From contig CAZOHQ010000001.1 of the NCBI GenBank assembly GCA_964579455.1, positions 1 to 29,163 on the forward strand: 29,163 bases of DNA, written 5' to 3'. The position numbers and the translations under genes are program-made. Positions 3,088-23,740 of this stretch are shown in pieces (position 1 is the first letter of the stretch; each line of letters starts with the position of its first letter). A model generated the notes under the pieces. It saw only the letters and a program-made list of their open reading frames with translations, did not search any database and had not been told where the DNA came from. Source of the DNA: an uncultured Syntrophaceae bacterium (lineage in GTDB: Bacteria; Desulfobacterota; Syntrophia; Syntrophales; UBA2210).

Positions 3088-3102
3088 TGGCACCATAATT
3101 GC
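3088..3102 (+). promoter_or_regulatory. sigma54 (-24/-12) promoter
   Basis: TGGCAC-CATAA-TTGC, a consensus match with GG-N10-GC spacing. Confidence 0.85.
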
Positions 3103-3591: not shown

Positions 3592-3605
3592 AAAGGAGTC
3601 ATCTC

Positions 3606-5048: not shown

Positions 5049-5068
5049 TTATTGATGGAAAAAGTATT

Positions 5069-6913
5069 ATGACAGTCGTAAAGCGTTCATACTGCGGGAA
5101 GCTGAGGCTTACCGATAAAGGCACTGAGGTACATCTGAAGGGATGGGTGGATGCCTTAAGGGATCATGGAGAGGTTCTTTTTATACATCTCCGAGACAGA
5201 AGCGGTATCGTGCAGGTAGTATTCAATCCCGAAGACACCCCTGCGAAGACATGCAGACAGGCCCAGTCGCTGAGAAGTGAATTCTGTATTTCAGTGAGAG
5301 GCTTTGTGAAAAAAAGGAATAAGGGAACGGAAAACCCGAATATCGAGACGGGCAAGATCGAGGTGGTTGTCTCTGATCTGGAAATTCTTAACCAATCCAA
5401 GCCACTGCCCTTTCCTATTTCGGAAAAGGCAATGGTCGCCGGTGCTGCCGTCGGGGATATCGGTTCGATAGCTGAAGATACGCGGCTACAATATCGCTAC
5501 CTCGACCTGAGACGCCCTACCATGCAGCGCAATCTCGTTATGAGGCACCGCATCACCAAATGTGTCCGCGATTATCTGGATGAGCATAGTTTTGTTGAAG
5601 TGGAAACGCCGATGCTGACAAAGAGTACTCCGGAAGGTGCCCGCGATTATCTTGTTCCCAGCCGCATCCACCCGAAACGATTTTATGCGCTCCCCCAGTC
5701 TCCCCAGCTTTTCAAACAGCTTCTCATGGTAAGCGGTATTGAACGTTATTTTCAGATCGCACGGTGCTTTCGTGATGAGGATCTGAGACCGAACAGACAG
5801 CCTGAATTCACCCAGCTTGACCTTGAGGCATCCTTCATCGAGGAGGAAACTATATATAACCTGATGGAAGAGCTTGTGGTGCGCATGTTTGCCGTGGGTG
5901 GCATTACCATCACCCTTCCCTTTCCACGAATGACCTGGGATGAAGCCATGGATTCGATGGGAACGGACCGGCCCGATGCCCGCTTTGGTCTCCGCTTTAC
6001 TGATGCCACCGATATCTTCAAAGATACCTCCTACGGCATATTCAGTCGAATAGTGCAAAAGGGCGGTTTTATAAAGGGGATTAACGTCAAGGGGCAGTCT
6101 GACAAGCTGAGCAAAAATGTCCTGCAGAATGAGTATGCGGGCAAGATCGTTCCCTCCTTCGGTGCAAAGGGTATGACCTGGATGCGGGCTATAGGGGAAA
6201 CACTGGAATCCAATATCGTTCAGTTTTTCAGCGAGGAAGAGAAGAAAAACATCAGAGAGCGTTTCAATGCCGAAGAAGGTGATGTTATCATACTCATCGC
6301 CGATACCTCTTACAAGGTTGTTTCATCGGTCCTGGGACAGTTGAGGATGCATCTGGCTCATCGGCTTGACTTAATTCCGAAAGATGAAGTATGTCCATTA
6401 TGGATCACGGAATTTCCGCTTTTTACTACGACAGGAAGAAGAATAACATCGAATCACCACCCCTTTACCGCACCGGACAGTTCCGATTTCGATCCGAATA
6501 ATCGAGAGGAACTCCTTGCCCTTAAGTCACGTGCCTATGATCTGGTTGTCAACGGCGAGGAACTCGGGGGTGGAAGCATTCGAATACATGACAGTTCCCT
6601 TCAGCAGAAAATATTTCAGGCCCTCGGTTTGTCCGATCGTGAGGTGAAGAAAAAGTTCGGATTTTTCCTGAAGGCCCTTGATTACGGAGCTCCGCCTCAC
6701 GGAGGCATCGCCCTCGGCATGGACAGGGTTATTTCCATGATACTGGGAACGGAAACCATTCGTGAAGTCATCGCCTTCCCGAAGAACCGAAGTGCCCATT
6801 GCCCCCTCAGTGAAGCGCCTTCTTCCGTCGCGCGCAAACAGCTATCCGACCTGGGTCTGCTCGATCTCGATAGCGGCAAATGGGTTGAGGGGAAAAAAAT
6901 TATAACGGGTTAG
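5069..6913 (+). CDS. aspS: Aspartate--tRNA(Asp/Asn) ligase, non-discriminating type
   Basis: OB-fold (GWV..LRDHG..FIHLRD), RYRYLDLRR-like motif, STPEGARDY, PQSPQLFKQ, FRDEDLR, GAPPHGG. His in RDHG and Gly in KGTENP are the non-discriminating signatures. Start ATG 5069. Confidence 0.95.
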   Translation: MTVVKRSYCGKLRLTDKGTEVHLKGWVDALRDHGEVLFIHLRDRSGIVQVVFNPEDTPAKTCRQAQSLRSEFCISVRGFVKKRNKGTENPNIETGKIEVVVSDLEILNQSKPLPFPISEKAMVAGAAVGDIGSIAEDTRLQYRYLDLRRPTMQRNLVMRHRITKCVRDYLDEHSFVEVETPMLTKSTPEGARDYLVPSRIHPKRFYALPQSPQLFKQLLMVSGIERYFQIARCFRDEDLRPNRQPEFTQLDLEASFIEEETIYNLMEELVVRMFAVGGITITLPFPRMTWDEAMDSMGTDRPDARFGLRFTDATDIFKDTSYGIFSRIVQKGGFIKGINVKGQSDKLSKNVLQNEYAGKIVPSFGAKGMTWMRAIGETLESNIVQFFSEEEKKNIRERFNAEEGDVIILIADTSYKVVSSVLGQLRMHLAHRLDLIPKDEVCPLWITEFPLFTTTGRRITSNHHPFTAPDSSDFDPNNREELLALKSRAYDLVVNGEELGGGSIRIHDSSLQQKIFQALGLSDREVKKKFGFFLKALDYGAPPHGGIALGMDRVISMILGTETIREVIAFPKNRSAHCPLSEAPSSVARKQLSDLGLLDLDSGKWVEGKKIITG

Positions 6914-6926
6914 GATCTGGTCCTGA

Positions 6927-8018
6927 ATGATGAAAGCATTACTTGTATTGGAAGATGGAAGATTTTTTGAGGGAACATCCTTTGGCGCCTCCGGGGAACG
7001 CTTCGGCGAGGTGGTGTTCAACACGGGGATGACGGGCTATCAGGAAGTCCTGACAGATCCGTCCTATAAAGGTCAGATCGTCGTAATGACCTGTCCCCTT
7101 ATCGGAAATTACGGAATCAATGAAGAGGATTCGGAATCACGATCCCTCTGGCTCGAAGGTTTCGTCATCAGGGAGCTGAGCGGCATAACCAGCAACTGGC
7201 GATCGCAAAAGGACCTTGCCACCTACCTCGAAGAACACAATATCATAGGCATCCAGGGTATCGATACCCGCGCACTGACAAAACACATCAGAACCAGGGG
7301 TGCCATGAGGGCCGTTATATCCACCGCCGACGATAACATCGATTCTCTCGTTGAAAAGGCATGCGCATCGCCCGGACTTGAGGGGATAGACCTCGTGGCG
7401 AGCGTGACCTGTGAAAAACCCTCTGTGTTGAACGGACAGGACGGACCGCGGGTCGTTGTCATGGATTTCGGCGTCAAACAGAGCATTTTGAATCAGCTCC
7501 GGAATGAGGGCTGCAATGTGACCGTTCTTCCCGCCCATACCTCGATTGATGAGATTATGGAGAGGGAGCCCGGCGGCATACTTCTCTCAAACGGTCCTGG
7601 AGATCCCGATGCCGTGAAATATGCGGTAGCCACGACAAAGAGACTTCTCGAGATGGGAACGATTCCGATCTTCGGTATCTGCCTGGGTCAACAGATTCTG
7701 GGCCTGGCACTGGGGGGGAGGACATATAAACTAAAATTCGGACATCACGGATCAAACCAGCCTGTCAAGGACCTGAAAACGGGGAAAATCGATATTACCG
7801 TTCAAAACCACGGGTTTTGTGTCGATATCGATTCTCTTGACAAAAAATTGATAGAGATGACCCATATTAACCTCAACGATAATACACTGGAAGGCTTTGA
7901 GCATAAAGAATTGCCTGCATTTTCAGTTCAGTTTCATCCGGAGGCTGGTCCCGGTCCTCATGATGCGCGATATCTGTTCCACCGGTTTGTCGAAATGATA
8001 ACAAGTTATGAAAAGTAG
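6927..8018 (+). CDS. carA: Carbamoyl-phosphate synthase small (glutaminase) subunit
   Basis: GEVVFNTGMTGYQE, LSNGPGDP, GICLGQQ (catalytic Cys), QNHGF, QFHPEA. Start may be 6927 or 6930. Confidence 0.97.
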   Translation: MMKALLVLEDGRFFEGTSFGASGERFGEVVFNTGMTGYQEVLTDPSYKGQIVVMTCPLIGNYGINEEDSESRSLWLEGFVIRELSGITSNWRSQKDLATYLEEHNIIGIQGIDTRALTKHIRTRGAMRAVISTADDNIDSLVEKACASPGLEGIDLVASVTCEKPSVLNGQDGPRVVVMDFGVKQSILNQLRNEGCNVTVLPAHTSIDEIMEREPGGILLSNGPGDPDAVKYAVATTKRLLEMGTIPIFGICLGQQILGLALGGRTYKLKFGHHGSNQPVKDLKTGKIDITVQNHGFCVDIDSLDKKLIEMTHINLNDNTLEGFEHKELPAFSVQFHPEAGPGPHDARYLFHRFVEMITSYEK

Positions 8019-8029
8019 GAGTGTGAGAA

Positions 8030-9568
8030 GTGAAAGAGACAGTTGCCGTATTTGATTTCGGATCACAGTACTCCCAGCTCATCGCCCGACGTATCAGGGA
8101 GATGGGTGTCTACTGTGAGATTGTCAGGCATGATATATCGAAAGATAAGCTGGCAGAGCTTGCTCCTGTAGCAGTGGTTCTTTCGGGAGGCCCCGCCTCA
8201 GTTCTCGACCCGGATTCGCCCTCCATGGACCGTGAGATACTCTCTCTCGATATACCCATACTGGGCATATGCTACGGTATGCAACTCATGGCACAGCTTC
8301 TCGGTGGTGTGGTGGAAAAGGGGAGGGGCGGAGAATACGGTCCCGCCTTGATTGAGACCTCAGGATCGACGGGTATATTTCAGGGAATGGAATCTCCTCT
8401 CCATGTCTGGATGAGTCATGGGGATCATGTAGAGACAGTTCCCGAAGGCTTTCTCGTGCTGGCGAGCACACATGATTGCCCGATCGCAGCTATGATGGAT
8501 ACAGCAGGGAGAATGTTTGGCATTCAGTTCCATCCCGAAGTGGTTCACACACCGAAGGGGGTCGAAATTATCAGAAACTTTCTCTTTCATGTGGCGGGAT
8601 GTGCGGGCGATTGGACCATGGGTCGATTCGCCGAAGAATCGGTGAAAAAAATCAGGGATACCGTGGGCGATTCCAATGTAATCTGCGGCCTTTCGGGCGG
8701 TGTCGATTCATCCGTTGCTGCCGCACTCATAAACAGGGCGATAGGTGGCCAGATGAAGGCCATCTTTGTGGATAACGGTCTCCTGCGGAAAGGGGAAGTG
8801 GATGAAATCCGCACCCTCTTTACCGAAGATTATAAGCTCAACTTCCGCATTGCTGACGCAAGGGTGAGGTTTGTCGATGCGCTGAGAGGGGTGATTGATC
8901 CCGAAAGAAAGAGGAAGATCATCGGCGAGACCTTTATCGATGTCTTTAGAGACGAGGCAGCGGGTGTCGAATCCGCCCGGTTTCTTGCCCAGGGAACGCT
9001 CTATCCCGACGTGGTGGAAAGCCAATCGGCCCATGGCGGACCCTCTTCAATGATCAAGAGTCATCATAATGTTGGAGGCCTGCCCGCTGATCTCCCTTTT
9101 GAACTCCTGGAACCGCTCAGGGAGCTATTTAAAGATGAGGTACGGGTGCTTGGGAGAGAGTTGGGATTACCGGAAAGGCTCCTGATGAGACAACCCTTTC
9201 CGGGTCCGGGCCTGGGTGTACGCATCGTAGGTGAGGTGACTGAAGAGTCCCTTGCCATACTTCGAGATGCCGATGTAATTGTTCAGGAAGAGTTGAAGGC
9301 CTATGAGGGATATGGAGATATCTGGCAGTCCTTTGCCGTTCTCCTCCCCGTTAAAAGTGTGGGTGTGATGGGTGATGAGCGGACCTATGACAACGTGGTG
9401 GCCCTGAGAATTGTCACAAGTCTTGATGCGATGACGGCCGACTGGGTCAAACTTCCCTATGAAATTCTGGGAAAGATATCTTCGAGGATCATTAACGAGG
9501 TAACGGGCGTGAATCGTGTCGTCTATGACATAAGTTCAAAACCGCCCAGCACCATCGAGTGGGAATAG
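8030..9568 (+). CDS. guaA: GMP synthase (glutamine-hydrolysing)
   Basis: DFGSQYSQLIARR, GICYGMQ, WMSHGD, QFHPEV, LSGGVDS, IKSHHNVGG, PFPGPGL, SKPPSTIEWE; GTG start after AGGAG. Confidence 0.97.
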   Translation: MKETVAVFDFGSQYSQLIARRIREMGVYCEIVRHDISKDKLAELAPVAVVLSGGPASVLDPDSPSMDREILSLDIPILGICYGMQLMAQLLGGVVEKGRGGEYGPALIETSGSTGIFQGMESPLHVWMSHGDHVETVPEGFLVLASTHDCPIAAMMDTAGRMFGIQFHPEVVHTPKGVEIIRNFLFHVAGCAGDWTMGRFAEESVKKIRDTVGDSNVICGLSGGVDSSVAAALINRAIGGQMKAIFVDNGLLRKGEVDEIRTLFTEDYKLNFRIADARVRFVDALRGVIDPERKRKIIGETFIDVFRDEAAGVESARFLAQGTLYPDVVESQSAHGGPSSMIKSHHNVGGLPADLPFELLEPLRELFKDEVRVLGRELGLPERLLMRQPFPGPGLGVRIVGEVTEESLAILRDADVIVQEELKAYEGYGDIWQSFAVLLPVKSVGVMGDERTYDNVVALRIVTSLDAMTADWVKLPYEILGKISSRIINEVTGVNRVVYDISSKPPSTIEWE

Positions 9569-9577
9569 TTACCGTTT

Positions 9578-12500
9578 ATGCCAAAACGTACTGATATAAA
9601 AAAGATTCTGATTATCGGTTCAGGACCTATCGTCATCGGACAGGCCTGCGAATTCGATTACTCCGGCACTCAGGCCTGCAAGGCTCTCGTCGAAGAGGGA
9701 TACGAGGTGGTACTCCTGAATTCGAACCCGGCCACCATTATGACGGATCCCGAGATGGCCGACAAGACCTATATTGAACCGATAACGGCAGATATAATCG
9801 AGAAAATCATCGAGAAGGAACGTCCCGATGCCGTCCTTGCCACCATTGGCGGTCAGACGGCACTTAATACGGCCGTTGAGGCCGCCGAACGGGGGATCTT
9901 TGAACGATATCATGTGGAGATGATCGGGGCCGATCTGCCGGCCATCAAGAGGGCTGAAAACAGGGATGAATTCAAAGCGGCGATGGCGGAGATCGGACTC
10001 GATGTCCCCAGGAGTGAGGTGGCCCATTCCATGGAGGAGGCCCGAGAGGTCGCGGATGATTTGGGCTTTCCCCTTGTCATCCGTCCCAGCTTTACCCTCG
10101 GTGGTACCGGCGGTGCCCTGGCCTATAATGCCGAGGAGTTTGAAGACTGCGCCTCCTATGGTATCGAACAGAGCATGATAAACGAGATCCTCATAGAGGA
10201 ATCTGTCCTCGGGTGGAAGGAATACGAACTGGAAGTCATGCGTGATCATAAGGACAATGTGGTCATTATCTGTTCCATAGAAAACTTTGACGCCATGGGG
10301 GTTCACACGGGTGATTCCATCACCGTCGCCCCTGCCCAGACACTTACGGACAGGGAATATCAGTATCTTCGCAATGCATCCATTGCAGTCATTCGAAAGG
10401 TGGGAGTTGCCACGGGGGGATCCAATATACAATTTGCCGTAAATCCCGAAACGGGACGTGTGGTGGTTATCGAGATGAATCCCCGGGTTTCGAGATCCTC
10501 TGCCCTGGCATCGAAGGCGACCGGATTCCCCATTGCGAAGATTGCCGCAAAACTTGCCGTCGGTTACACCCTCGATGAAATCCCGAATGATATTACGAAA
10601 CAGACTCCGGCATCCTTTGAGCCAACCATCGACTACTGCGTGGTCAAGATACCCCGTTTCGCCTTTGAAAAATTCCCCGGCGTGGAAGACACCCTCACCA
10701 TATCGATGAAATCGGTGGGGGAAACCATGGCCATCGGCAGGACCTTCAAAGAGGCGCTCCAGAAAGGGCTGAGGGGGCTTGAAACGGGCCTGAACGGGCT
10801 TGACCGAAACAGAGGAGATGCCTGTGAATACAGTGATGCGCTTCTCACCCGTCCTACTGCGGAGCGGCTTTTTCACATACGATGTGCCATAGAAAAAGGC
10901 ATGCCCATCGACCGGATAGCGGAGCTTTCGGGAATCGATCCCTGGTTTCTCCAGAATATCAAAGATATCGTCGATATGGACACAACGATCGGGGGCTTCA
11001 GGGGTGGGGGTACACTCCCTCCGGATATCATGAAAAAGGCTAAGAAATTCGGATTTTCAGACCGACAGATAGGCAACATTATGGGTATGGATGAATCCCG
11101 CATTCGGACCATGAGGGAAAAGGACGGGATAACGCCGGTCTATAAGCTTGTCGATACCTGTGCCGCCGAATTTGAAGCCTATACGCCCTATTATTACTCT
11201 ACCTATGAGGAAGAAGATGAAAGCAGGGGGAGCGAAACCAGAAAAGTAATGATAATAGGCGGCGGCCCGAACAGGATTGGGCAGGGGATAGAATTCGATT
11301 ACTGCTGTGTTCATGCCTCGATGGCACTGAGGGAAGCAGGGTATGAGACGATAATGGTAAATTCCAATCCTGAAACGGTATCCACCGATTACGATATTTC
11401 GGACAGGCTCTATTTTGAACCCTTAACGCTGGAGGATGTTCTCAATATCGCCCGGACGGAAAAGCCCGAAGGCGTCATCGTGCAGCTTGGCGGGCAGACA
11501 CCCCTGAATCTGGCTTTGCCCCTGGCGCAGAACGGAGTGAAAATACTGGGAACGTCTCCGGAGGCCATTGACCGGGCCGAAGACAGAAAACTCTTCAAGG
11601 AAATGGCCGACAAACTGGATATCAGACAACCCGCAAACGGCACGGCGATCTCATTTGAAGAGGCCGAAGAGATAGTGGAAAGAATCGGGTATCCCGTGCT
11701 GATTCGACCTTCCTATGTGCTCGGTGGAAGGGCCATGGTAGTGGTCTGGCATCAGGAAGATCTCAGGGGATTTGTGAAGGAAGCTTTTGAGGCATCACCG
11801 GATCACCCCATACTGATAGACAAATTTCTCGAAGATGCCCTTGAGGTGGACGTCGATGCCGTTTCCGACGGAATCGACGTTATCATAGGCGGCATTATGG
11901 AACATATTGAGCACGCCGGCATTCACTCGGGGGACAGCGCCATGGTTATTCCCTCCTATTCGATCAAACAGGAAATGCTGTCGGAGATAAAGGATGTGAC
12001 GAGGCGTATGGCCCTCGAGCTTGAGGTAAAGGGCCTTATCAACATCCAGTTTGCCGTTAAGGGTGATGAGCTCTATGTGCTTGAAGTAAACCCCCGGGGG
12101 TCGCGCACCGTTCCCTTTGTATCAAAGGCTACCGGCGTGCCTCTGGCCAAGATCGCCACAAGAGTAATGGTCGGTCAGTCCCTCAAGGATCAGGGAATAT
12201 TCAAGGATCCTGAACCCCGGTATTTTTCGGTCAAAGAATCGGTTCTTCCCTTCACGAGATTTTATGGCGCCGATACACTTTTGGGCCCGGAGATGAAATC
12301 CACGGGTGAGGTAATGGGGATCGATCCCGATCTCGGAGTGGCCTTTGCGAAGAGCCAGATTGCCGCCGGGCAGAGCGTCCCAGATTCCGGGAAGGTATTT
12401 ATCAGTGTCAAGGACTATGATAAACGTGAAATTGTAGAAATTGGGAAAAAATTCGAGGATCTTGGGTTTGAGATACTGTCAACACCAGGCACGGCACAAA

Positions 12501-12793
12501 CGCTCAGGGAAAGTGGCGTCTCTGTCACACAGCTCCCCCGCCTTGACGAAGGTCGGCCGAACCTCCTGGACTATATCAAGAACCGGAATGTCGATCTTCT
12601 GATCAACACCCCGAGCGGTCCGAAACCGAGACGAGACGAGATTAAGATTCGAAGCACGGCACTCTCCCGTAATGTGCCACTTGTTTCAACCGTCGCCGGA
12701 GCCAAGGCTATGGTTAACGCCATCGATGCTCTGAGACGTCAGACACTGACGGTACGGTCACTGCAGGAGATATATCGCAGCACGGACCGGTAA
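9578..12793 (+). CDS. carB: Carbamoyl-phosphate synthase large subunit
   Basis: [30 protein letters not shown], two ATP-grasp halves (HTGDS / HSGDS), C-terminal MGS domain; 1071 aa. Confidence 0.98.
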
Positions 12794-12866: not shown

Positions 12867-15800
12867 ATGAGTCAGAAATCAACAACCGCCAGAGGGACCA
12901 AGGAGCTATCGCTCCTGTGGGAGGTCAGTCGGGTTCTGGAACAGGGCAACGATGTGAAAAAAATAGGGATGCCCATCCTCCGTGCCCTCGATAAATTCAT
13001 GGGTATGTCGAGGGGTTTTATTACACTCCTGAACAGGGAAACGGGAGAGATCTTCATCGAGGCCGCTCACGGCCTTTCCAAGGCGCAAAAAGAGAGAGGA
13101 AAATATAAGATAGGGGAAGGTGTTGTCGGTAAGGTGGTTGAAACGGGAAGACCCATGATCGTGCCCAAGATTTCCGATGAGCCATTGTTCCTGGACCGAA
13201 CGGGGGTGCGTAAAAATCTTCCGAAAAAGGATATATCGTTCATCTGTGTCCCCATAAGAAATCAGAACGAGGTAATAGGCACGCTCAGTGCAGACAGGGT
13301 GTTCGATGAATCGATCTCACTGAAAGAAGATCTTCGGCTTCTCACCATTATTGCCTCAATGATCGCCCAGGCGGTCCGTCTCCTTCAGCAGGAAGAAGAG
13401 GATCGTCATCGTGCGGTGGAGGAGAAAGACCGTCTGGACAGAAGGGCCTCCAAAAGCCTGCATCTTGTCAGTACGGGCCATGAATTCCTCGATACTATCA
13501 TCAATGGCTTGAGAATCGGGGATAACGTGGTCTGGCAGGTGGATGATCTCGAAGATTACAGATATGTCGCCGGGCTCTTTGTTGAAAGGTCTCTAAAGGA
13601 AAAAAAGAAGCTCGTCTATATACGATTTGCCGATCACGCGCCCCTTGTAAAACCCGGGCAAGAGGTGGTCACCTATCACCTGAATCCGGCAAGCGGCTTT
13701 GAGACATTCTCGACGGAAGTATACAATATTATTACAAAAGAAGGGACAGGCGTTAATTATGTCTTTGACTGTCTCTCCAACCTCCTTTCGGAATGGTCTA
13801 CCGATCTGATGGTGGGAAATTTCTTTGTTATAACCTGTCCCTATCTCTTTGAATTGGATACCATCGCATATTTTGCCGTCATCAGGGGGAATCATTCCTT
13901 CCAGACGATTGCCCGGATTCGTGAAACAACACAGGTGCTGCTCGATCTTCACAACGACAAGGGGACTCTCTATATTCATCCCCTCAAGGTCTGGAAACGG
14001 TATTCTCCCACCATGTTTCTTCCCCACAAGAAGGAGGGGGATGAATTTGTACCGATAATAGACAGTGTGGATGCCGCAAATTTATTTTCCAACATGTCAA
14101 AAAAGAAATTAGAACATGGCGAGAGGAGTCTTGACTATTGGGACAGGTTGTTCATTGAAGCCGAAGGTCTGCTTGAAAAGCCCTGGGAATCGGAAAAAGA
14201 AGAGGACATGATCGACAGGATATGCAGGATCATGATCACCAGGGAGCCCAGAATGTCTATCCTCGTAAAGGACAATTTTTCTCTCGAAGATCTCTTACGG
14301 ATACGGGAGAGATTGATCGGTACCGGTTTTCTCGGGGGAAAAACGGGAGGAATGCTCCTGGCCAGGAAAATTCTGGAACTCGATAAAAACTTTGACTGGC
14401 CATCAATCCTCGAGGAGCATGATTCCTTCTATATAGGGTCCGATGTCTTCTACACCTATCTGGTTCAGAATAACTGGTGGAAACTGCGAATGGAGCAGAA
14501 GACACAAGGGGGCTACTTCAAGGCGGCCCGCATCCTCCGGGATAAAATGAAGAACGGGACTTTCCCCGATGAAGTGAGGGAACAGTTTTACAGGATGCTG
14601 GAATATTTCGGGCAATCACCCATTATCATACGCTCCAGTAGTCTGCTGGAAGATTCTTTTGGAAATGCCTTTGCCGGCAAATATGAGAGCATCTTTCTCG
14701 TGAATCAGGGGGCTCCTGAGGAACGATACGCCCAGTTTGAGAATGCCGTTCGCACAATATACGCCAGTGCCATGAATGAGAATGCCCTGGCCTATCGAAA
14801 GCAGAGGGGTCTTGAAAAGGCTGATGAACAGATGGCCCTTCTCGTGCAGCGTGTCTCGGGATCACATCATAAGAATTATTATTTCCCAGATCTCGCAGGG
14901 GTAGGTATCTCCCATAACACCTTCGTGTGGAATAAGGAAATGGATCCAGAGGCGGGCATACTGAGGCTCGTATTCGGACTCGGAACAAGGGCGGTGAACA
15001 GGGTTGAAGGAGATTACCCCAGAATCGTCGCATTGGACCTTCCCCTTTTGAAACCCCATGGGGGGATGGAAGATACGAGGAAATTTTCTCAACGCGACGT
15101 GGACCTTCTCGATCTCGATCGAAACGGCTTGACGACGAAGTCGGTTCTTAAGCTGTCGGGCGAAGGCCTTGACATAAAAATGGAAAGAATTGCAACAAGA
15201 GATCACGAAACCGATCGGAAGATACGAGAACTTGGCATAAAAGATCAACAAGCATGGGTGTTGACCTTTGACGATTTTTTATCGGATACTCAATTTACCG
15301 ATGTGATGCACAGGATGCTCAAGAAGCTGGAAACAATCTATGACTATCCGGTTGATATAGAATTCACGATGAATTTTACCGATGAAGATGATTTTAAGAT
15401 CAATCTGGTACAGTGCAGGCCTCTTCAAAGACAGGGAGAAGGGAAGAGGGTTGAATTTCCGAAGAATGTCGATAAGGAAAATATCCTCTTTCAATTTGAA
15501 GGCAATTTCCTCGGCGACGGCATTATGGAGTCTGTTGACAGGATTATTTATGTTGACCCGGCACAATACACACAATTGAGTCAGCAGAACAAATATGAAA
15601 TTGCCAGAATCGTGGGGAGACTGAACCGGCAGATCGAGAACAGAGAAAATCTCCATGTCATGTTGCTTGGCCCGGGCAGATGGGGTTCAACGACACCCTC
15701 GTTAGGAGTTCCAGTGGGATTTTCCGAGATAAACAACATCTCGGTGTTGGGTGAAATTGCCTATTCGGACGGAAATCTTATGCCCGAGCTGTCCTATGGT

Positions 15801-16034
15801 ACCCATTTCTTCCAGGACCTTGTGGAGACAAATATCTTTTATATAGCCATTTTCCCGGGTGAAAAAGATGTGATCTTCAATGTGCCATGGCTGGAAAAAT
15901 TTACCAATAAGATGGATGAATTTGTCCCTGATTTTGTCCAATACCGGGATGTTGTGAAGGTTTTCGATACCAGTGAAGAGAATCTGCAGATACTGGCAGA
16001 CATTGTACAGAGAAAGGTGATTTGCTATTACTAA
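12867..16034 (+). CDS. Multidomain protein: NifA-type GAF + KaiC/RecA-like segment + PEP-synthase/PPDK N-terminal (ATP-grasp) domain + C-terminal GPGRWGS/GTHFF domain; function unknown
   Basis: ATG 12867 after AAGGGGG. Residues 13-172 are a GAF closely similar to that of the activator at 18146. From residue 199, STGHEFLDTIINGLRIGD resembles a KaiC-like N-terminus. PPDK_N motifs: GGKTGG, IRSSSLLED..AFAGKYES, MALLVQ, GLGTRAV, PVDIEF, VQCRPL. No pyruvate-binding barrel. Confidence 0.85.
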   Translation: MSQKSTTARGTKELSLLWEVSRVLEQGNDVKKIGMPILRALDKFMGMSRGFITLLNRETGEIFIEAAHGLSKAQKERGKYKIGEGVVGKVVETGRPMIVPKISDEPLFLDRTGVRKNLPKKDISFICVPIRNQNEVIGTLSADRVFDESISLKEDLRLLTIIASMIAQAVRLLQQEEEDRHRAVEEKDRLDRRASKSLHLVSTGHEFLDTIINGLRIGDNVVWQVDDLEDYRYVAGLFVERSLKEKKKLVYIRFADHAPLVKPGQEVVTYHLNPASGFETFSTEVYNIITKEGTGVNYVFDCLSNLLSEWSTDLMVGNFFVITCPYLFELDTIAYFAVIRGNHSFQTIARIRETTQVLLDLHNDKGTLYIHPLKVWKRYSPTMFLPHKKEGDEFVPIIDSVDAANLFSNMSKKKLEHGERSLDYWDRLFIEAEGLLEKPWESEKEEDMIDRICRIMITREPRMSILVKDNFSLEDLLRIRERLIGTGFLGGKTGGMLLARKILELDKNFDWPSILEEHDSFYIGSDVFYTYLVQNNWWKLRMEQKTQGGYFKAARILRDKMKNGTFPDEVREQFYRMLEYFGQSPIIIRSSSLLEDSFGNAFAGKYESIFLVNQGAPEERYAQFENAVRTIYASAMNENALAYRKQRGLEKADEQMALLVQRVSGSHHKNYYFPDLAGVGISHNTFVWNKEMDPEAGILRLVFGLGTRAVNRVEGDYPRIVALDLPLLKPHGGMEDTRKFSQRDVDLLDLDRNGLTTKSVLKLSGEGLDIKMERIATRDHETDRKIRELGIKDQQAWVLTFDDFLSDTQFTDVMHRMLKKLETIYDYPVDIEFTMNFTDEDDFKINLVQCRPLQRQGEGKRVEFPKNVDKENILFQFEGNFLGDGIMESVDRIIYVDPAQYTQLSQQNKYEIARIVGRLNRQIENRENLHVMLLGPGRWGSTTPSLGVPVGFSEINNISVLGEIAYSDGNLMPELSYGTHFFQDLVETNIFYIAIFPGEKDVIFNVPWLEKFTNKMDEFVPDFVQYRDVVKVFDTSEENLQILADIVQRKVICYY

Positions 16035-16252: not shown

Positions 16253-16591
16253 TTATCCGATTGCCGGCCCGCCCCGCTCGCCGGTTCCGATTCTGACCAC
16301 CTCGTTAAGATCAAGGACAAAAATCTTTCCATCGCCAGGTTTGCCGGTGTGTGCACCTTTTTCAATGGCACCAACGGCGAGTTCCGCAAAATCCTCGTTT
16401 ACGGCAATCTCGATCTTTATTTTTTTGAGGAGACCGATCTCCTGGATACCCCGGTACACTTCGGTGTAGCCCTTTTGTCTTCCTCTTCCCAGAACATTAG
16501 AGACGGTGATTAAATGGACCTCAACGTTTTCAAGTTCCTTTCTTACCTCATCAAGCTTATGCGGTTGTATGATCGCTATGATATATTTCAT
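16253..16591 (-). CDS. glnK: Nitrogen regulatory protein PII
   Basis: GRGRQKG, EVYRG, TGKPGDGKIFV; 112 aa; directly downstream of amtB. Confidence 0.95.
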   Translation of the reverse strand: MKYIIAIIQPHKLDEVRKELENVEVHLITVSNVLGRGRQKGYTEVYRGIQEIGLLKKIKIEIAVNEDFAELAVGAIEKGAHTGKPGDGKIFVLDLNEVVRIGTGERGGPAIG

Positions 16592-16600
16592 GTTTTTCTC

Positions 16601-17827
16601 CTATTCTAAGATGGTGTATGCTGACTCGTGGTGCTGGGTCAGGTCAAGTCCTACCAGTTCATCTTCCCTGTCGACCCTCATACCGAAGATGGCATCTACA
16701 ACCTTATAGAGAATCCATGTCACGATGAGCGCATAAGCAATGCATGCAACGAGGTAAAATCCCTGAATGAGAAAGAGTTCTACATTACCGAAAAGAAGGC
16801 CATTTGCCCCAGCTTCGTTTATAACCTTTTCAGCAAAGAGCCCTGTAGCGAGAGTGCCCCACATTCCCCCTACACCATGGACACCAAAAACGTCAAACGC
16901 ATCATCGTATCCAAATTTTGCTTTTACTGCGGTTACAGCCATATAGCAGATCATGCTGGCTATTATTCCTATCACGATTGCCGAGAGAGGGCTGACGAAT
17001 CCGCAGGCAGGTGTGATGGCAACAAGGCCGGCGAGCGCGCCGGTGACAATACCAAGCGTCGTAGGAGCTCCGTGCCGCTGCCATTCAATCAGTGCCCAGG
17101 TAACACCGGCAGCGGCTGCTGCCGTGTTGGTGGTGACAAAGGCATTCGCGGCGAGGCCTCCTGCCCCCAATGCACTGCCCGCATTAAATCCGAACCATCC
17201 GAACCAGAGGAGCGCGCCTCCCAGAACCGTCAAAGTCAGATTGTGAGGTGCAAAACCATGGCCATTGGTTCGTATTCTTTTCCCGATAAGGATTGCCATC
17301 AGGAGTGCGGAAACCCCGGAACTGACATGGACGACGATTCCCCCGGCGAAATCGAGCGCCCCGAGATTACTCAGCCATCCACCTCCCCATACCCAGTGAG
17401 CGATCGGATCATACACAAAGGTTGTCCATAGAAGCATCATTATTACAAAGGCGGAAAACTTGATTCGCTCGGCAAATGCTCCAACGATCAGGGCCGGTGT
17501 GATAATGGCAAACATGGCCTGAAATATCATAAAGACAAGGTGCGGAATCGTGCCTGAATAATTGCCGTCCGGTTCGAATCCAACCCCTCTCAGCCCCGCC
17601 CACTGGAGACTTCCGATAATTCCGTGCACGTCCGGTCCAAAGGCGAGAGAATAACCGAAAAGGACCCATTGCAGACTCATGAGACACATTATGAAGTAAC
17701 ACTGCATCAGTACAGACAGCATATTCTTCCTTCGGGCCAACCCTCCGTAAAAGAGGGCAACGCCCGGCGTCATGATGAAAACGAGAGCGGCACAGGTCAT
17801 CACCCATGCGGTATCACCAGTATTCAT
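16601..17827 (-). CDS. amtB: Ammonium transporter
   Basis: FQAMFAIIT, AHWVWGGG, DFAGGIVVH, LWFGWFGFNAGS, DVFGVHG (both pore His, Phe gate and Trp retained); GGAGG RBS. Confidence 0.97.
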   Translation of the reverse strand: MNTGDTAWVMTCAALVFIMTPGVALFYGGLARRKNMLSVLMQCYFIMCLMSLQWVLFGYSLAFGPDVHGIIGSLQWAGLRGVGFEPDGNYSGTIPHLVFMIFQAMFAIITPALIVGAFAERIKFSAFVIMMLLWTTFVYDPIAHWVWGGGWLSNLGALDFAGGIVVHVSSGVSALLMAILIGKRIRTNGHGFAPHNLTLTVLGGALLWFGWFGFNAGSALGAGGLAANAFVTTNTAAAAAGVTWALIEWQRHGAPTTLGIVTGALAGLVAITPACGFVSPLSAIVIGIIASMICYMAVTAVKAKFGYDDAFDVFGVHGVGGMWGTLATGLFAEKVINEAGANGLLFGNVELFLIQGFYLVACIAYALIVTWILYKVVDAIFGMRVDREDELVGLDLTQHHESAYTILE

Positions 17828-17879: not shown

Positions 17880-17894
17880 TCAATATCCGTACCA
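17880..17894 (-). promoter_or_regulatory. Putative sigma54 promoter for amtB-glnK
   Basis: Minus strand TGGTAC-GGATA-TTGA: correct GG spacing, with -12 GC changed to GA. About 53 nt from the amtB start; UAS pair 80-125 bp upstream. Confidence 0.6.
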
Positions 17895-18016: not shown

Positions 18017-18145
18017 TATTCTCCATCCTTATCAATGTGACGGTCGAAATGAAGGCAGCAAGTGAAGGTGGTTACTCTGTATTTGCTACAGCCCTGTTAA
18101 TGGGATACAGGGCAGGCTGGTAACTTACACACGAGGAGCATGAGG

Positions 18146-19708
18146 ATGGAGCAGAAGGAAAAGCATAAAGCAACCCGGAAGAGCAGGGAAATGAGTGAAC
18201 TTTCCTTGCTCTACGAAGTCAGCCAGGCCCTTGGTCGAAGCCTGGAAATTCGAGAAGTGACAGGACCCGTATTAAATGCACTGGCGGAGAAAATGGGTAT
18301 GACACGGGGGACACTGACACTCCTCAATAGAAACAGTGGAGAGATGTTTATAGAGATAGCCCACGGATTATCCGAGATGCAGAAAAAGAAGGGACGATAT
18401 CAGATAGGCGAAGGAGTTACCGGCAAGGTAGTGGAAACCGGCCAGCCAGTAATCGTTCCCCACATCTCCGATGAACCCCTTTTTCTGGACAGGACGGGAT
18501 CACGAAAAGATCTTAACAAAACGGACATTTCTTACATCTGTGTCCCCATAAAAATTGGAACGGAGGTCATCGGGGCCCTCAGCGCCGACAGGCTCTTTGA
18601 CGAGACCATATCCCTAAAAGAGGATGTACGACTCCTTTCGATTATTGCATCCATGGTAGCCCAGGCAGTTCGGCTTCGCCAGGAGACACAGGAAGAACGT
18701 GAACTGCTGATTCAGGAAAACCTGCGCCTGCAGAGCGAATTGAAAGAAAAGTTTCGTCCCTCGAATATCATAGGCAAGTCCAAGGGAATACAGGAGGTAT
18801 ATCAACTCATTGCCCAGGTATCCAACAGCACTGCCAACGTATTGATCCGGGGTGAAAGCGGGACAGGCAAAGAGCTTATAGCAAATGCCATTCATTTTAA
18901 CAGTATGAGGGCCAGTAAACCCCTGGTCAAGGTCAATTGTGCCGCACTCCCCGAAACGGTCCTCGAAAGCGAGCTTTTCGGTCATGAAAAGGGAGCTTTT
19001 ACGGGAGCCACTTCCTTGAGAAAGGGGCGATTTGAACTGTCTCATGGGGGGACAATATTTCTCGACGAGGTGGGAGATCTTCCCCCAATGGTACAAATAC
19101 GGCTTTTGAGGGTCCTCCAGGAACGCGAATTTGAGCGGGTGGGCGGAACCCAGACGATGAAAATCGATGTGCGGGTGATTGCAGCGACAAACAGGAATCT
19201 GGAAACATTGATGGAAAAGGGAGATTTCAGGCAGGATCTCTACTATCGGCTCAATGTATTCCCCATCTATGTGCCCCCTCTCAGAGAACGGAAATCTGAC
19301 ATTCTGCTTCTCACCGACTTCTTTGTGGAACGGTACGCCAGGGCAAATAATAAGAGGATTCAGCGAATCTGTACCCATGCCATAGACATGCTTATGAGTT
19401 ATCACTGGCCGGGTAATGTCAGGGAATTGGAAAACAGTATTGAGCGGGCAGTCCTTCTCAGCAATGAGGGTGTGATCTATGGATATCATCTTCCCCCCAC
19501 GCTGCAGACCTCTGCATATTCAGGAACGATTCCCTATGGAACGCTTCAGGGCGAGGTTGACCGATATGAGCGCGATCTCATAATGGATGCCCTGAAGACC
19601 TCAAGGGGAAACATGTCAAGGGCTGCGAAAATTCTCGGTACCACGGAAAGAATCATCGGATTGCGGGCCCAGAAATACGATATAGACTCTAAGCGCTTTC
19701 GTACATAA
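18146..19708 (+). CDS. NifA-type sigma54-dependent transcriptional activator (GAF-AAA+-Fis HTH)
   Basis: N-terminal GAF, GESGTGKE, GAFTGA, FLDEVGDL, WPGNVREL, C-terminal HTH (RGNMSRAAKILG). Start 18146 is preferred to 18140 on RBS spacing (GAGGAG at 18133-18138). Confidence 0.95.
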   Translation: MEQKEKHKATRKSREMSELSLLYEVSQALGRSLEIREVTGPVLNALAEKMGMTRGTLTLLNRNSGEMFIEIAHGLSEMQKKKGRYQIGEGVTGKVVETGQPVIVPHISDEPLFLDRTGSRKDLNKTDISYICVPIKIGTEVIGALSADRLFDETISLKEDVRLLSIIASMVAQAVRLRQETQEERELLIQENLRLQSELKEKFRPSNIIGKSKGIQEVYQLIAQVSNSTANVLIRGESGTGKELIANAIHFNSMRASKPLVKVNCAALPETVLESELFGHEKGAFTGATSLRKGRFELSHGGTIFLDEVGDLPPMVQIRLLRVLQEREFERVGGTQTMKIDVRVIAATNRNLETLMEKGDFRQDLYYRLNVFPIYVPPLRERKSDILLLTDFFVERYARANNKRIQRICTHAIDMLMSYHWPGNVRELENSIERAVLLSNEGVIYGYHLPPTLQTSAYSGTIPYGTLQGEVDRYERDLIMDALKTSRGNMSRAAKILGTTERIIGLRAQKYDIDSKRFRT

Positions 19709-22204: not shown

Positions 22205-22206
22205 CC

Positions 22207-23739: not shown

Positions 23740-23740
23740 T

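What the first reader, a model, noticed from the sequence alone, without database searches (positions are those of the whole stretch)
12867..16034. GAF / RecA-like / PPDK-ATP-grasp fusion: candidate nitrogen-signalling dikinase
Seen: architecture GAF (13-172), charged linker, KaiC-like segment from 199 with no Walker A (VVWQVDD where a P-loop would be expected), ATP-grasp (~485-853) and a C-terminal domain with GPGRWGS and SYGTHFF (His980). The PEP/pyruvate-binding barrel and the classical TSH phospho-His motif are absent. Established: rifampicin phosphotransferase and glucan water dikinases combine the same ATP-grasp with a phospho-His domain to phosphorylate non-pyruvate acceptors. Inference: it is not a PEP synthase. 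His980 may be a phospho-carrier, and the protein may be a GAF-gated phosphotransferase acting on a nitrogen-pathway target (PII, GS, GOGAT or the activator).
Basis: partly seen in the sequence, partly recalled or inferred. Interest (0 to 1): 0.82.

Follow-up and report, generated by a model that had tools for sequence, protein, structure and literature searches.

The report
Nitrogen-linked GAF-gated dikinase-like enzyme
This gene encodes a member of a large, unstudied enzyme family (an ATP-binding domain of the PEP-synthase type joined to a new histidine-bearing domain) that in many bacterial phyla sits next to glutamate dehydrogenase and other ammonium-assimilation genes; here it has also gained a sensor domain copied from the neighbouring nitrogen regulator, so it is probably an unknown layer of nitrogen control.

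Summary
ORF 12867-16034 is a real 1055-aa protein with four domains:
- a NifA-type GAF sensor;
- a KaiC/FlaH-like RecA fold without a P-loop (Foldseek E 9e-13);
- an intact PEP-synthase-type ATP-grasp (PPDK_N, E 2e-49);
- a 185-aa C-terminal domain (CTD) with GPGRWG and invariant His980.

It is not a PEP synthase. The CTD is not a recognisable His-swivel domain: Pfam, hhalign (0.35%, same as controls) and Foldseek against PDB and BFVD all found nothing. Its fold has no detectable relative.

ATP-grasp plus CTD is the constant core of a large uncharacterised family (1878 50%-identity clusters, at least 596 species). His980 is present in 151 of 151 representatives.

The nitrogen link is strong. 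NADP-glutamate dehydrogenase lies within 2 kb in 33 of 80 species loci, and a core nitrogen gene does in 48 of 80. GAF-bearing members always end a purF-carA-guaA-carB operon, here behind an exact sigma-54 promoter. The GAF is 63% identical to that of the adjacent NifA-like activator.

Best reading (inferred): an ATP-dependent, His980-dependent phosphotransferase acting on the ammonium-assimilation node, gated by a nitrogen-status ligand. The chemistry, acceptor and ligand are untested.

The parts
12867..16034 (+). Complete ORF, 1055 aa plus stop: GAF / KaiC-like / ATP-grasp / CTD protein, called 'T' in this report
   Evidence: Homologues of exactly 1055 aa at 80-93% identity. Shine-Dalgarno AAGGGGG lies upstream of the ATG.
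12903..13436 (+). NifA-type GAF sensor domain plus its C-terminal linker helix (residues 13-190)
   Evidence: Pfam GAF E 4e-16. NCBIfam nifA N-terminal region E 1e-34. PDB 4g3k Nlh1 GAF E 2e-26. 63% identical over 183 residues to the GAF of the activator at 18140-19708.
13380..13463 (+). Charged linker (residues 172-199). The fusion junction lies at about residues 191-199.
   Evidence: The alignment to the activator ends at T residue 190 / activator residue 197, just before the activator's AAA+ domain, which starts at 210.
13461..14216 (+). KaiC/FlaH-like RecA-fold domain without a P-loop (residues 199-450)
   Evidence: AF2 model pLDDT 86.5, pTM 0.81. Foldseek hits KaiC 7s65_B E 9e-13 and FlaH 4yds E 7e-12. 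No Pfam or PDB sequence hit.
13518..13547 (+). GDNVVWQVDD (218-227), at the position of the missing Walker A
   Evidence: Strand 220-225 and helix 228-244 in the model.
13755..13778 (+). NYVFDCLS (297-304): Walker-B-like strand with invariant Asp301 and Ser304
14331..15476 (+). PEP-synthase-type ATP-grasp nucleotide-binding domain (PPDK_N, residues 489-870)
   Evidence: Pfam PF01326 E 2e-49. Profile hits to PEPS and rifampin phosphotransferase ATP-grasp domains 8a8e, 5hv6, 5fbs. Motifs GGK 14334-14342, RSSSLLED 14631-14654, DIEFT 15354-15368 and VQCRP 15408-15422 are invariant or nearly so.
15477..16031 (+). Family-specific C-terminal alpha/beta domain (CTD, residues 871-1055)
   Evidence: AF2 model pLDDT 81.9, pTM 0.84. 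No Pfam, PDB-sequence, hhalign or Foldseek relative. Always follows PPDK_N in 1878 clusters.
15669..15686 (+). GPGRWG loop (935-940). Gly937 and Arg938 are 99% conserved.
15792..15806 (+). SYGTH (976-980). The His980 codon is 15804-15806. His is 100% conserved, Ser976 and Gly978 98%. Glu963 (15753-15755) and Gly947 are also 100%.
   Evidence: 151 representatives. His lies at the N-terminus of helix 979-988, after a low-confidence loop at 969-978.
3088..3102 (+). Exact sigma-54 promoter consensus TGGCACCATAATTGC at the head of the purF-aspS-carA-guaA-carB-T gene string
   Evidence: 2 exact matches in the window against 0.05 expected. The same position, about 519 nt before purF, carries TGGCATTATAATTGC in relative L090, and a similar site heads the operon in L001.
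3606..12793 (+). purF, aspS, carA, guaA and carB, co-oriented with T and directly upstream. There is a 73-nt gap and no terminator before T.
   Evidence: The same string precedes T in all GAF-bearing loci (L001, L002, L090/L091, L092) and in GAF-less L003.
18182..18730 (+). Paralogous GAF domain of the NifA-like sigma-54 activator (gene 18140-19708)
   Evidence: 63% identity, E 9e-81. The activator scores 540 bits on TIGR01817 nifA, cut-off 528.85.
16253..17827 (-). glnK (PII, 16253-16591) and amtB (16601-17827), convergent with T
   Evidence: A sigma-54-like site with 2 mismatches lies at 17880-17894 (-). PII/AmtB lie near T homologues in 8 of 80 loci within 10 kb.

Best explanation
T is a four-domain member of a large, uncharacterised enzyme family. 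The family's constant core is a PEP-synthase-type ATP-grasp followed by a family-specific C-terminal domain (CTD) that carries invariant Arg938, Gly947, Glu963, Ser976 and His980.

Most likely it is an ATP-driven phosphotransferase of the dikinase kind. ATP would bind in the ATP-grasp. A phosphoryl (or pyrophosphoryl) group would be taken up or handled by His980 of the CTD and passed to an acceptor that is selected or scaffolded by the N-terminal KaiC-like pseudo-ATPase domain.

The acceptor probably belongs to the ammonium-assimilation node. In most lineages the best candidate is NADP-glutamate dehydrogenase. In this Syntrophales lineage it could instead be an enzyme of the co-transcribed glutamine-using operon (carbamoyl-phosphate synthetase) or of the GS/GOGAT/PII set.

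In this lineage the enzyme also acquired the GAF sensor and linker helix of the NifA-like sigma-54 activator lineage. The same nitrogen-status ligand (of the 2-oxoglutarate or glutamine type) would then control both transcription of the operon, through the activator and the sigma-54 promoter at 3088, and the activity of the enzyme, through its own GAF. The GAF may act by controlling oligomerisation of the ring-type KaiC-like domain, as GAF does for the AAA+ ring in Aquifex NifA-like activators.

Shown here: the architecture, the intact ATP-grasp motifs, the invariant CTD residues, the family size, the gene neighbourhoods, the GAF paralogy and the sigma-54 motif. Inferred: the phosphotransfer chemistry, the role of His980, the acceptor, the ligand and the role of the KaiC-like domain.
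For: - Architecture and intact ATP-binding motifs.
- In every characterised enzyme with this ATP-grasp type (PEPS, PPDK, rifampin phosphotransferase, VadK), the ATP-grasp hands phosphate to a histidine on a separate domain (established knowledge; PMC4844700, PMC13400623). Here the domain after the ATP-grasp has a 100%-conserved His at a helix N-terminus behind a flexible loop.
- ATP-grasp plus CTD is the invariant unit. N-terminal modules are swapped: KaiC-like, none, or unrelated modules of about 160 or 315 aa. Some members add a C-terminal nucleotidyltransferase. This is how dikinases vary their acceptor modules.
- Neighbourhoods: GDH within 2 kb in 33 of 80 species loci from at least 8 phyla, and in 23 of 46 loci with good flanks. 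NrpR, GOGAT, AmtB, PII and CPS also recur. Any core nitrogen gene lies within 2 kb in 48 of 80 loci.
- In 5 loci the GAF-sigma-54 activator gene lies directly next to GAF-less T: upstream on the same strand in the three Planctomycetota loci L009, L020 and L028 and in L059, and on the opposite strand in L044.
- T-GAF is 63% identical to the neighbouring activator's GAF.
- Exact sigma-54 promoters head the T operon and the GS/GOGAT operon, and the site is conserved in relatives.
- Precedents: EI-Ntr is a GAF-gated His-autophosphorylating enzyme whose GAF binds glutamine (PMC4848567). VadK is a truncated PPDK relative that autophosphorylates on His and binds metabolic enzymes (PMC13400623).
Against: - The CTD shows no detectable similarity in sequence, profile or fold to the phospho-His swivel domain. 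The His-carrier role rests only on position and conservation.
- No acceptor has been identified, and adjacency to GDH is equally compatible with a metabolic role.
- In Bacillota and some other lineages the neighbours show no nitrogen theme. The tandem members have inconsistent contexts.
- The window holds no GDH gene.
- The AF2 models rest on shallow alignments of 23-24 sequences.
- No paper on the family was found, so there is no experimental support at all.
Confidence: 0.5

Rival explanations
1. T is a metabolic enzyme, not a regulator. The ATP-grasp/CTD core would phosphorylate or ligate a small molecule of the glutamate / 2-oxoglutarate / ammonia node, for example an ATP->AMP-driven activation step feeding or draining GDH. 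The KaiC-like domain would be the substrate-binding module and the GAF an allosteric feedback site.
For: - Tight adjacency to gdhA, often co-directional with gaps of 40-240 bp, is typical of pathway partners.
- T sits in an operon of biosynthetic, glutamine-using enzymes.
- Most characterised non-PEPS relatives act on small molecules (rifampin phosphotransferase, PigC/HapC, Hpe kinase, MarK; titles).
- One tandem member lies next to alpha-amylase and PGI genes and another next to PFK.
Against: - No known reaction at this node needs such an enzyme.
- GAF fusion, NrpR or sigma-54 activator adjacency and swapped N-terminal modules (including a nucleotidyltransferase) look more like signalling or regulatory proteins.
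- The putative substrate module is a degenerate ring-ATPase fold, which usually mediates protein-protein assembly.
Confidence: 0.25
2. One reading: the CTD is an extremely diverged PEP-utilizers His-swivel domain, and T is a classical three-step swivel dikinase like rifampin phosphotransferase.
For: - The order of secondary-structure elements in the model resembles the swivel domain as I recall it (not tested): hairpin, helix, strand, loop, strand, loop-His-helix, strand, terminal sheet.
- The domain position after the ATP-grasp and the invariant His fit.
Against: - No PF00391 hit in 24 members at E<=10.
- hhalign of a 176-sequence CTD profile against 13 genuine swivel domains gave 0.35%, equal to the controls.
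- Foldseek of a confident model (pTM 0.84) put no PEPS, PPDK, EI or RPH chain among the 50 listed PDB matches, and the best E was 0.21.
- The CTD, at about 185 aa, is nearly twice the size of a swivel domain.
Confidence: 0.12
3. T is a non-catalytic sensor or scaffold. It would bind ATP/ADP (energy charge) in the ATP-grasp and a nitrogen metabolite in the GAF, and regulate a partner such as GDH or PII purely by binding, through a KaiC-like ring.
For: - A degenerate KaiC-like domain and a sensor GAF are present.
- KaiC and FlaH homologues act through assembly states (established knowledge).
Against: - All catalytic ATP-grasp motifs, including the Mg-binding E832 and Q849/R851, and five CTD residues are invariant across clusters at 50% identity or less. 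That argues for chemistry rather than mere binding.
Confidence: 0.08
4. It is an ordinary PEP synthase or pyruvate phosphate dikinase, as database names of relatives suggest ('phosphoenolpyruvate synthase', 'PEP/pyruvate-binding domain-containing protein').
For: Names given by sources to homologues. PPDK_N hit.
Against: - Scores are 62 bits or less against PEPS equivalog cut-offs of 600-1000.
- There is no His-swivel domain and no PEP/pyruvate TIM barrel.
- The protein ends 185 residues after the ATP-grasp.
Confidence: 0.01

Closest known systems
PEP synthase / PPDK superfamily dikinases without the pyruvate barrel: rifampin phosphotransferase (RPH, 5FBS/5HV1) and M. tuberculosis VadK (Rv1127c)
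   Same: - Same ATP-grasp type (PPDK_N), with conserved nucleotide and Mg motifs.
- No PEP/pyruvate barrel.
- A separate domain with a conserved His follows the ATP-grasp.
- A third, variable domain is expected to hold the acceptor.
- VadK shows that such truncated relatives can be regulatory autokinases bound to metabolic enzymes (PMC13400623).
   Different: - The His-bearing domain is not the PEP-utilizers swivel domain by any test run here, and it is about twice as large.
- The third domain is a P-loop-less KaiC-like fold.
- A GAF sensor is added.
- The genomic theme is nitrogen assimilation.
[quoted passage not shown]
   Same: - An N-terminal GAF is fused to a His-autophosphorylating phosphotransfer enzyme that reports nitrogen status.
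- The GAF binds glutamine (PMC4848567).
- There is a weak GAF-level hit to the PtsP model, E 0.002.
   Different: - EI-Ntr uses PEP, not ATP.
- It has the PEP-utilizers swivel domain and TIM barrel, and no ATP-grasp or KaiC-like domain.
- Its targets are NPr and EIIA-Ntr.
NifA / Aquifex Nlh1-type GAF-regulated sigma-54 activators
   Same: - The GAF plus linker helix is of this type (E 1e-34 to nifA; 4g3k E 2e-26) and is 63% identical to the activator encoded 2 kb away.
- In both proteins the GAF precedes a ring-forming ASCE-type domain.
   Different: There is no AAA+ sigma-54 interaction domain and no HTH. The output is an enzyme rather than transcription.
KaiC / FlaH (ArlH) RecA-superfamily proteins
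   Same: Same fold for residues 199-450 (TM 0.62-0.69, probability 1.00). The STG...LD N-terminal signature and a Walker-B-like Asp are present.
   Different: - No Walker A.
- FADH replaces the catalytic Glu pair.
- A single domain, not tandem.
- No PF06745 hit, so it is presumably a pseudo-ATPase.
Regulators encoded next to the enzyme they modify (PpsR next to ppsA; GlnE acting on GS)
   Same: The logic is similar: a dedicated modifying enzyme tied to a central metabolic enzyme and responsive to metabolic state. The adjacency resembles ppsR-ppsA.
   Different: There is no sequence or fold relationship, and modification of GDH by T is only a hypothesis.

Membership tests
PEP synthase / PPDK (pyruvate, water/phosphate dikinase) | PPDK_N ATP-grasp nucleotide-binding domain with its conserved motifs | tested here: met
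   PF01326 E 2e-49 at 489-870. GGK, RSSxxxED, FAG, DIEF and QxRP are invariant.
PEP synthase / PPDK (pyruvate, water/phosphate dikinase) | PEP-utilizers mobile (swivel) phospho-His domain with the T-S/C-H motif | tested here: not met
   No PF00391 hit. hhalign 0.35%, equal to controls. Foldseek found no hit.
PEP synthase / PPDK (pyruvate, water/phosphate dikinase) | C-terminal PEP/pyruvate-binding TIM barrel (PF02896) | tested here: not met
   No hit, and the protein ends at residue 1055 after the 185-aa CTD. NCBIfam PEPS scores are 62 bits or less against cut-offs of 600-1063.
Rifampin phosphotransferase / VadK-type barrel-less dikinases | ATP-grasp plus His-swivel domain, without the pyruvate barrel | tested here: inconclusive
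   ATP-grasp is met and barrel absence is met. The His-bearing domain is present but is not a recognisable swivel fold. The RPH model scores 36 bits against a cut-off of 999.
Rifampin phosphotransferase / VadK-type barrel-less dikinases | ATP-dependent autophosphorylation on the conserved His, with AMP + Pi as products | not testable with these tools
   Needs biochemistry with [beta/gamma-32P]ATP and an H980A mutant.
KaiC / FlaH (PF06745) RecA-like ATPases | RecA-like alpha/beta core fold | tested here: met
   Foldseek 7s65_B E 9e-13, 4yds E 7e-12, TM 0.62-0.69.
KaiC / FlaH (PF06745) RecA-like ATPases | Walker A GxxxxGK[ST] and catalytic glutamates | tested here: not met
   GDNVVWQVDD stands at the P-loop position and FADH at the catalytic-Glu position. 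No PF06745 hit.
NifA-type sigma-54 activators | N-terminal NifA-type GAF domain | tested here: met
   TIGR01817 region 3-188, E 1e-34. 63% identity to the neighbouring activator.
NifA-type sigma-54 activators | AAA+ sigma-54 interaction domain and C-terminal HTH | tested here: not met
   No PF00158 or PF02954 hit in T. The whole-protein score is 120 bits against a cut-off of 529.
Enzyme I-Ntr (PtsP) | GAF followed by the PEP-utilizers N-terminal, mobile and TIM-barrel domains | tested here: not met
   Only the GAF matches, and weakly (E 0.002, 16 bits against a cut-off of 583).
New family: ATP-grasp(PPDK_N)+CTD 'T' proteins | PPDK_N immediately followed by the CTD with GPGRWG...E...SxGxH | tested here: met
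   1878 clusters. The CTD is always C-terminal to PPDK_N. His is 151/151, Glu 152/152 and Gly-Arg 99%.
New family: ATP-grasp(PPDK_N)+CTD 'T' proteins | Genomic association with ammonium-assimilation genes | tested here: met
   GDH within 2 kb in 33 of 80 loci. Any core nitrogen gene within 2 kb in 48 of 80. The window itself holds carAB, glnK-amtB, the NifA-like activator and GS/GOGAT.

The most novel reading that the evidence does not exclude
T and its GAF-less relatives would be a previously unrecognised, widespread post-translational control system for ammonium assimilation. An ATP-driven kinase or dikinase would use a new kind of phospho-histidine carrier domain (the CTD fold has no known relative) to phosphorylate NADP-glutamate dehydrogenase or another enzyme of the GDH / GS-GOGAT / carbamoyl-phosphate node, docked through a degenerate KaiC-like ring. 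In Syntrophales it would be switched directly by 2-oxoglutarate or glutamine through a GAF domain borrowed from the NifA-like activator.
Probability: 0.22. Interest if true: 0.85.

Novelty: new variant of a known kind. Interest (0 to 1): 0.66.

Why it matters
How bacteria outside the enterobacterial GlnD/GlnE/NtrBC paradigm switch between GDH and GS-GOGAT is poorly understood. This applies especially to anaerobic Desulfobacterota, Planctomycetota, Omnitrophota and Spirochaetota.

A family with at least 1800 sequence clusters lies beside gdhA in about 40-50% of loci and near NrpR, PII/AmtB, GOGAT and sigma-54 activators. That makes it a strong candidate for a missing regulatory or enzymatic step.

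The GAF fusion gives a direct, testable handle: ligand binding, then activity. The C-terminal domain may be a new phosphotransfer fold. The KaiC-like pseudo-ATPase adds a further example of ring-ATPase folds re-used as regulatory modules.

Database names for the family ('phosphoenolpyruvate synthase', 'PEP/pyruvate-binding domain-containing protein') are misleading for metabolic reconstruction of these organisms.

Tried and rejected
- **CTD as a swivel domain.** Five tests were all negative:
  - a Pfam scan of 24 CTDs at E<=10;
  - hhalign against 3 genuine PEP-utilizers domains;
  - hhalign against 13 such domains, taken from E. coli ppsA/ptsI/ptsP and ten plasmid-borne genes, with negative controls;
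  - a PDB profile search;
  - Foldseek against PDB and BFVD.
- **Remote CTD relatives in other architectures.** The representative search returned only family members among the best 150. The weakest hits are not listed, so a transitive link could not be tried.
- **Literature.** Four searches on domain and GDH/NrpR keyword combinations found no paper on this family. Only precedents turned up: RPH, VadK and, from a fifth search, EI-Ntr.
- **Anti-phage defence.** No PADLOC hit, so this was rejected.
- **RNA elements.** The window, including the 500-nt leader before purF, has no Rfam family and no tRNA.
- **Tandem 1460-1650-aa members.** One lies next to alpha-amylase and PGI, one next to PFK, and one has nothing related. 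No consistent theme emerged.
- **Neighbours in Bacillota and some other lineages.** They include transporters, an amidohydrolase, arabinose isomerase and nitrite/sulfite reductase. There is no common theme.
- **Alternative N-terminal modules.** The modules of about 160 and 315 aa are not diverged KaiC-like domains: hhalign below 1%, with a positive control at 100%.
- **Recent gene conversion between T-GAF and activator GAF.** Rejected. Same-genome pairs are 59-61% identical, similar to distant T-GAF pairs at 52-57%. This fits one old fusion.
- **TTG start at 12846.** Considered unlikely. All close homologues are 1055 aa, and the Shine-Dalgarno sequence precedes ATG 12867.

Full report
**1. The observation**

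The finding's coordinates contain one long ORF on the + strand. It runs 12846/12867-16034. ATG 12867 is preceded by AAGGGGG at the right spacing, and it gives 1055 residues, exactly the length of all close homologues.

Pfam finds a GAF domain (35-170, E 4e-16) and a PPDK_N ATP-grasp (489-870, E 2e-49). It finds nothing for residues 171-488 or 871-1055.

NCBIfam shows that the first 200 residues are of the NifA N-terminal type (E 1e-34). All PEP-synthase, PPDK and rifampin-phosphotransferase models match only about 110-145 residues of the ATP-grasp, at 62 bits or less against cut-offs of 600-1700. The best solved relatives of the GAF are Aquifex Nlh1 (4g3k, E 2e-26) and NifA (9qq6, 8jrc).

An alignment of 27 homologues shows the ATP-grasp motifs to be invariant: GGK 490-492, RSSSLLED 589-596, FAGK 602-605, E832, and Q849/R851/P852. 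It also shows G218, D219, V221 and W223 (in GDNVVWQVDD, where a P-loop would sit) and GPGRWG 935-940 / S976 / G978 / H980 to be invariant.

**2. The two unannotated domains**

*KaiC-like domain.* An AlphaFold2 model of residues 195-450 (pLDDT 86.5, pTM 0.81) matches KaiC and FlaH with probability 1.00. The hits are 7s65_B at E 9e-13 and 4yds at E 7e-12, TM 0.62-0.69. The KaiC-like assignment is thus confirmed at fold level.

The Walker A is absent and the catalytic Glu pair is replaced by FADH. A Walker-B-like Asp301 is retained. This is a pseudo-ATPase of the RecA/KaiC class.

*C-terminal domain (CTD).* A model of residues 853-1055 is also confident (pLDDT 81.9, pTM 0.84). It has no structural relative. 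The best Foldseek E is 0.21 in PDB and 0.05 in BFVD, with TM no higher than 0.31.

I tested the His-swivel idea directly and every test was negative:
- No PF00391 hit in any of 24 family CTDs, even at E<=10.
- No PDB sequence hit with the CTD profile.
- hhalign of a 176-sequence CTD profile gave 0.35% probability against an alignment of 13 genuine swivel domains. These came from E. coli PpsA, PtsI and PtsP and from ten plasmid-borne PEPS, RPH-like and EI genes. The negative controls gave 0.1-0.8%.

So the CTD is not a recognisable swivel domain.

What remains is the following. His980 is present in 151 of 151 representatives clustered at 50% identity. Gly947 and Glu963 are also 100% conserved, Gly937/Arg938 99%, and Ser976/Gly978 98%. 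His980 sits at the N-terminus of a helix, directly after a low-confidence Gly-containing loop. That geometry is typical of phospho-His carriers, but this is an inference.

**3. The family**

The CTD profile finds 1878 clusters (E<=1e-3) among 1.84 billion representatives. The CTD always lies immediately C-terminal to a PPDK_N domain. A genome scan found relatives in at least 596 species-level genomes. The 80 loci kept span Desulfobacterota, Planctomycetota, Omnitrophota, Spirochaetota, Bacillota, Gammaproteobacteria, Actinomycetota, Elusimicrobia, Armatimonadota and others.

ATP-grasp plus CTD is the constant core. The commonest form, about 860 aa, has the KaiC-like domain in front. Other forms:
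- no N-terminal module (about 610-640 aa);
- unrelated N-terminal modules of about 160 or 315 aa (hhalign below 1% to the KaiC-like domain, with a positive control at 100%);
- a C-terminal Pol-beta-type nucleotidyltransferase (P0231, P0268, P0149);
- tandem duplications, such as Geobacter sp. OR-1 at 1472 aa.

A constant ATP/His core with exchangeable flanking modules is how known dikinases vary their acceptor. GAF-bearing members (1055-1065 aa) are confined to a Syntrophales / 'Deltaproteobacteria' group.

**4. Genomic context**

*In the window.* T is the last gene of a co-oriented string: purF, aspS, carA, guaA, carB, T. A 73-nt gap with no terminator separates carB from T. Downstream genes are:
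- glnK-amtB, convergent with T;
- a GAF-AAA+-HTH activator that passes the NifA equivalog cut-off (540 bits against 528.85);
- a glnA remnant;
- a class-I amidotransferase;
- a split GOGAT;
- pyrG.

Two exact sigma-54 consensus sites (TGGCAC-N5-TTGC) occur in the window, against 0.05 expected. One lies at 3088, about 518 nt before purF. The other lies at 19842, before the glnA remnant and GOGAT string.

The first site is conserved at the same distance in a relative that is 88% identical at the T-protein level (L090). A similar site lies at the operon head in L001. A GAF-less Smithella homologue has a one-mismatch site about 240 nt upstream of its own start (L007).

*In relatives.* All other GAF-bearing loci examined (L001, L002, L090/L091, L092; T protein 56-88% identical) keep carA-guaA-carB-T. 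So does GAF-less L003.

*Across the 80 species-level loci.* I clustered all flanking ORFs.
- The dominant neighbour is NADP-specific glutamate dehydrogenase (PRK09414, 751 bits).
- It lies within 2 kb in 33 of 80 loci, and in 23 of the 46 loci with at least 3 kb on both sides. It occurs on either side and strand, often co-directional with gaps of 40-240 bp.
- NrpR-like repressors occur in 9-11 loci, GOGAT subunits in 11-16, and AmtB and PII in up to 8 each. CPS and GS also recur.
- A core nitrogen gene lies within 2 kb in 48 of 80 loci.
- In five loci a GAF-sigma-54 activator gene lies directly next to GAF-less T. It is upstream on the same strand in the three Planctomycetota loci (L009, L020, L028) and in L059, and on the opposite strand in L044.

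The association is real, although the main partner is GDH. Bacillota loci and the tandem members show no such theme.

**5. Origin of the GAF**

T residues 8-190 are 63% identical (E 9e-81) to the GAF and linker helix of the activator at 18140-19708. The alignment ends just before the activator's AAA+ domain. Same-genome T-GAF/activator-GAF pairs are 59-61% identical. Distant T-GAFs are 52-57% identical to each other. This points to one old fusion rather than recent conversion.

The 'activator then T' gene order in Planctomycetota suggests the route: fusion of the activator's sensor to the downstream enzyme. This step is inferred.

**6. Mechanism**

*Shown:*
- an intact PEPS-type ATP site;
- an adjacent domain with an invariant Arg/Glu/Ser/His constellation;
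- a degenerate ring-ATPase fold;
- a NifA-type sensor paralogous to the local activator;
- membership of sigma-54/NrpR-associated nitrogen gene clusters.

*From established knowledge:* every characterised enzyme with this ATP-grasp type passes phosphate from ATP to a His on a neighbouring domain and then to an acceptor on a third domain. RPH is one example (PMC4844700). VadK, a truncated PPDK relative, autophosphorylates on His422 and binds methylcitrate-cycle enzymes (PMC13400623, section read). EI-Ntr is a GAF-gated His-autophosphorylating enzyme whose GAF binds glutamine (PMC4848567, abstract). From my own knowledge, Aquifex NifA-like GAF domains control assembly of the downstream ring ATPase.

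*Inferred:* T is an ATP-dependent phosphotransferase with His980 as carrier or catalytic residue. It acts on a component of the ammonium-assimilation node, with GDH the best candidate family-wide. Here its GAF gates it with the same ligand that controls the activator, so transcription and activity answer to one signal. I put this at about 0.5.

The main rival is a small-molecule metabolic enzyme of the glutamate/2-oxoglutarate node, at about 0.25. A pure scaffold or sensor, a classical swivel dikinase, and a true PEP synthase are less likely.

**7. Comparison and novelty**

The protein works most like the barrel-less dikinases (RPH, VadK), and in logic like EI-Ntr. It fails the membership tests of PEPS/PPDK (two of three defining domains are absent), KaiC (no Walker A), NifA (no AAA+ or HTH) and EI-Ntr.

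Databases hold the family only under generic or misleading names. I found no paper on it.

I rate it a new variant of a known kind. The ATP-grasp dikinase lineage is known. The CTD, the KaiC-like module, the GAF fusion and the GDH/nitrogen linkage are new. Caveats: the models rest on shallow alignments, no AFDB-wide fold search was possible, and nothing is experimentally tested.

Noticed in passing
window 19952-20409 (+): glnA (glutamine synthetase) is internally deleted. A 62-aa ORF holds only the Gln-synt_N beta-grasp (profile 7-68 of 82). An adjoining 90-aa ORF holds only the last part of Gln-synt_C (profile 261-342 of 344). In the syntenic locus of a relative whose T protein is 88% identical, an intact 443-aa glnA occupies this position (L090 17131-18462). 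This is either a real pseudogene or an assembly artefact.
   Followed up: partly
window 3088-3102 (+), 19842-19856 (+), 17880-17894 (-): Two exact sigma-54 promoter consensus sites (0.05 expected) head the purF...carB-T string and the glnA-remnant/GATase/GOGAT/pyrG string. A weaker site with 2 mismatches precedes amtB-glnK. Together with the NifA-like activator at 18140-19708, this suggests that nearly the whole window is one sigma-54 nitrogen regulon, although it holds no nif genes.
   Followed up: partly
window 3606-27591: The window is a super-cluster of glutamine-dependent amidotransferases: purF, carA, guaA, a stand-alone class-I GATase (20406-21137), the GOGAT amidotransferase subunit and pyrG. 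All are co-oriented and apparently co-regulated.
   Followed up: no
window 21155-25903 (+): The glutamate synthase is of the split type. It has separate GATase_2 (349 aa) and Fer4+Glu_synthase FMN (510 aa) subunits, plus a 729-aa fusion of the GXGXG domain with a GltD-like NAD(P)H oxidoreductase and a 2x[4Fe-4S] domain.
   Followed up: no
window 28027-28692 (-); L007 about 12.6-13.3 kb: A 221-aa ORF has no Pfam, NCBIfam or PADLOC match and lies next to pyrG. A homologue lies directly downstream of the GAF-less T gene, again near pyrG, in a Smithella genome.
   Followed up: partly
L004 6529-7791 (-); L033: A separate gene encoding a KaiC-type ATPase (PF06745) fused to HTH and cupin domains lies next to GAF-less T, a Glu_synthase-like gene, NrpR and GDH in L004. 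The same gene pair recurs in L033. It may be a functional partner of the KaiC-like domain of T.
   Followed up: no
P0231, P0268, P0149 (family members found): Some family members carry a C-terminal Pol-beta-type nucleotidyltransferase domain (PF01909) after the CTD. This is the domain class used by the nitrogen-signalling enzymes GlnD and GlnE.
   Followed up: partly
L005 (Geobacter sp. OR-1), L103, L104: Tandem members of 1460-1650 aa have the layout [ATP-grasp-CTD]-[KaiC-like-ATP-grasp-CTD]. In the second CTD of P0017 the GPGRWG loop has degenerated to APGRLG, but the His is kept. Neighbours include alpha-amylase plus PGI (L005) and PFK (L103), with no nitrogen theme.
   Followed up: partly
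window 3103-3605 (+): An unusually long leader of about 500 nt lies between the sigma-54 promoter and purF. It contains a short ORF just before purF; L090 has a called 50-aa gene at the same place. No Rfam family matches.
   Followed up: partly
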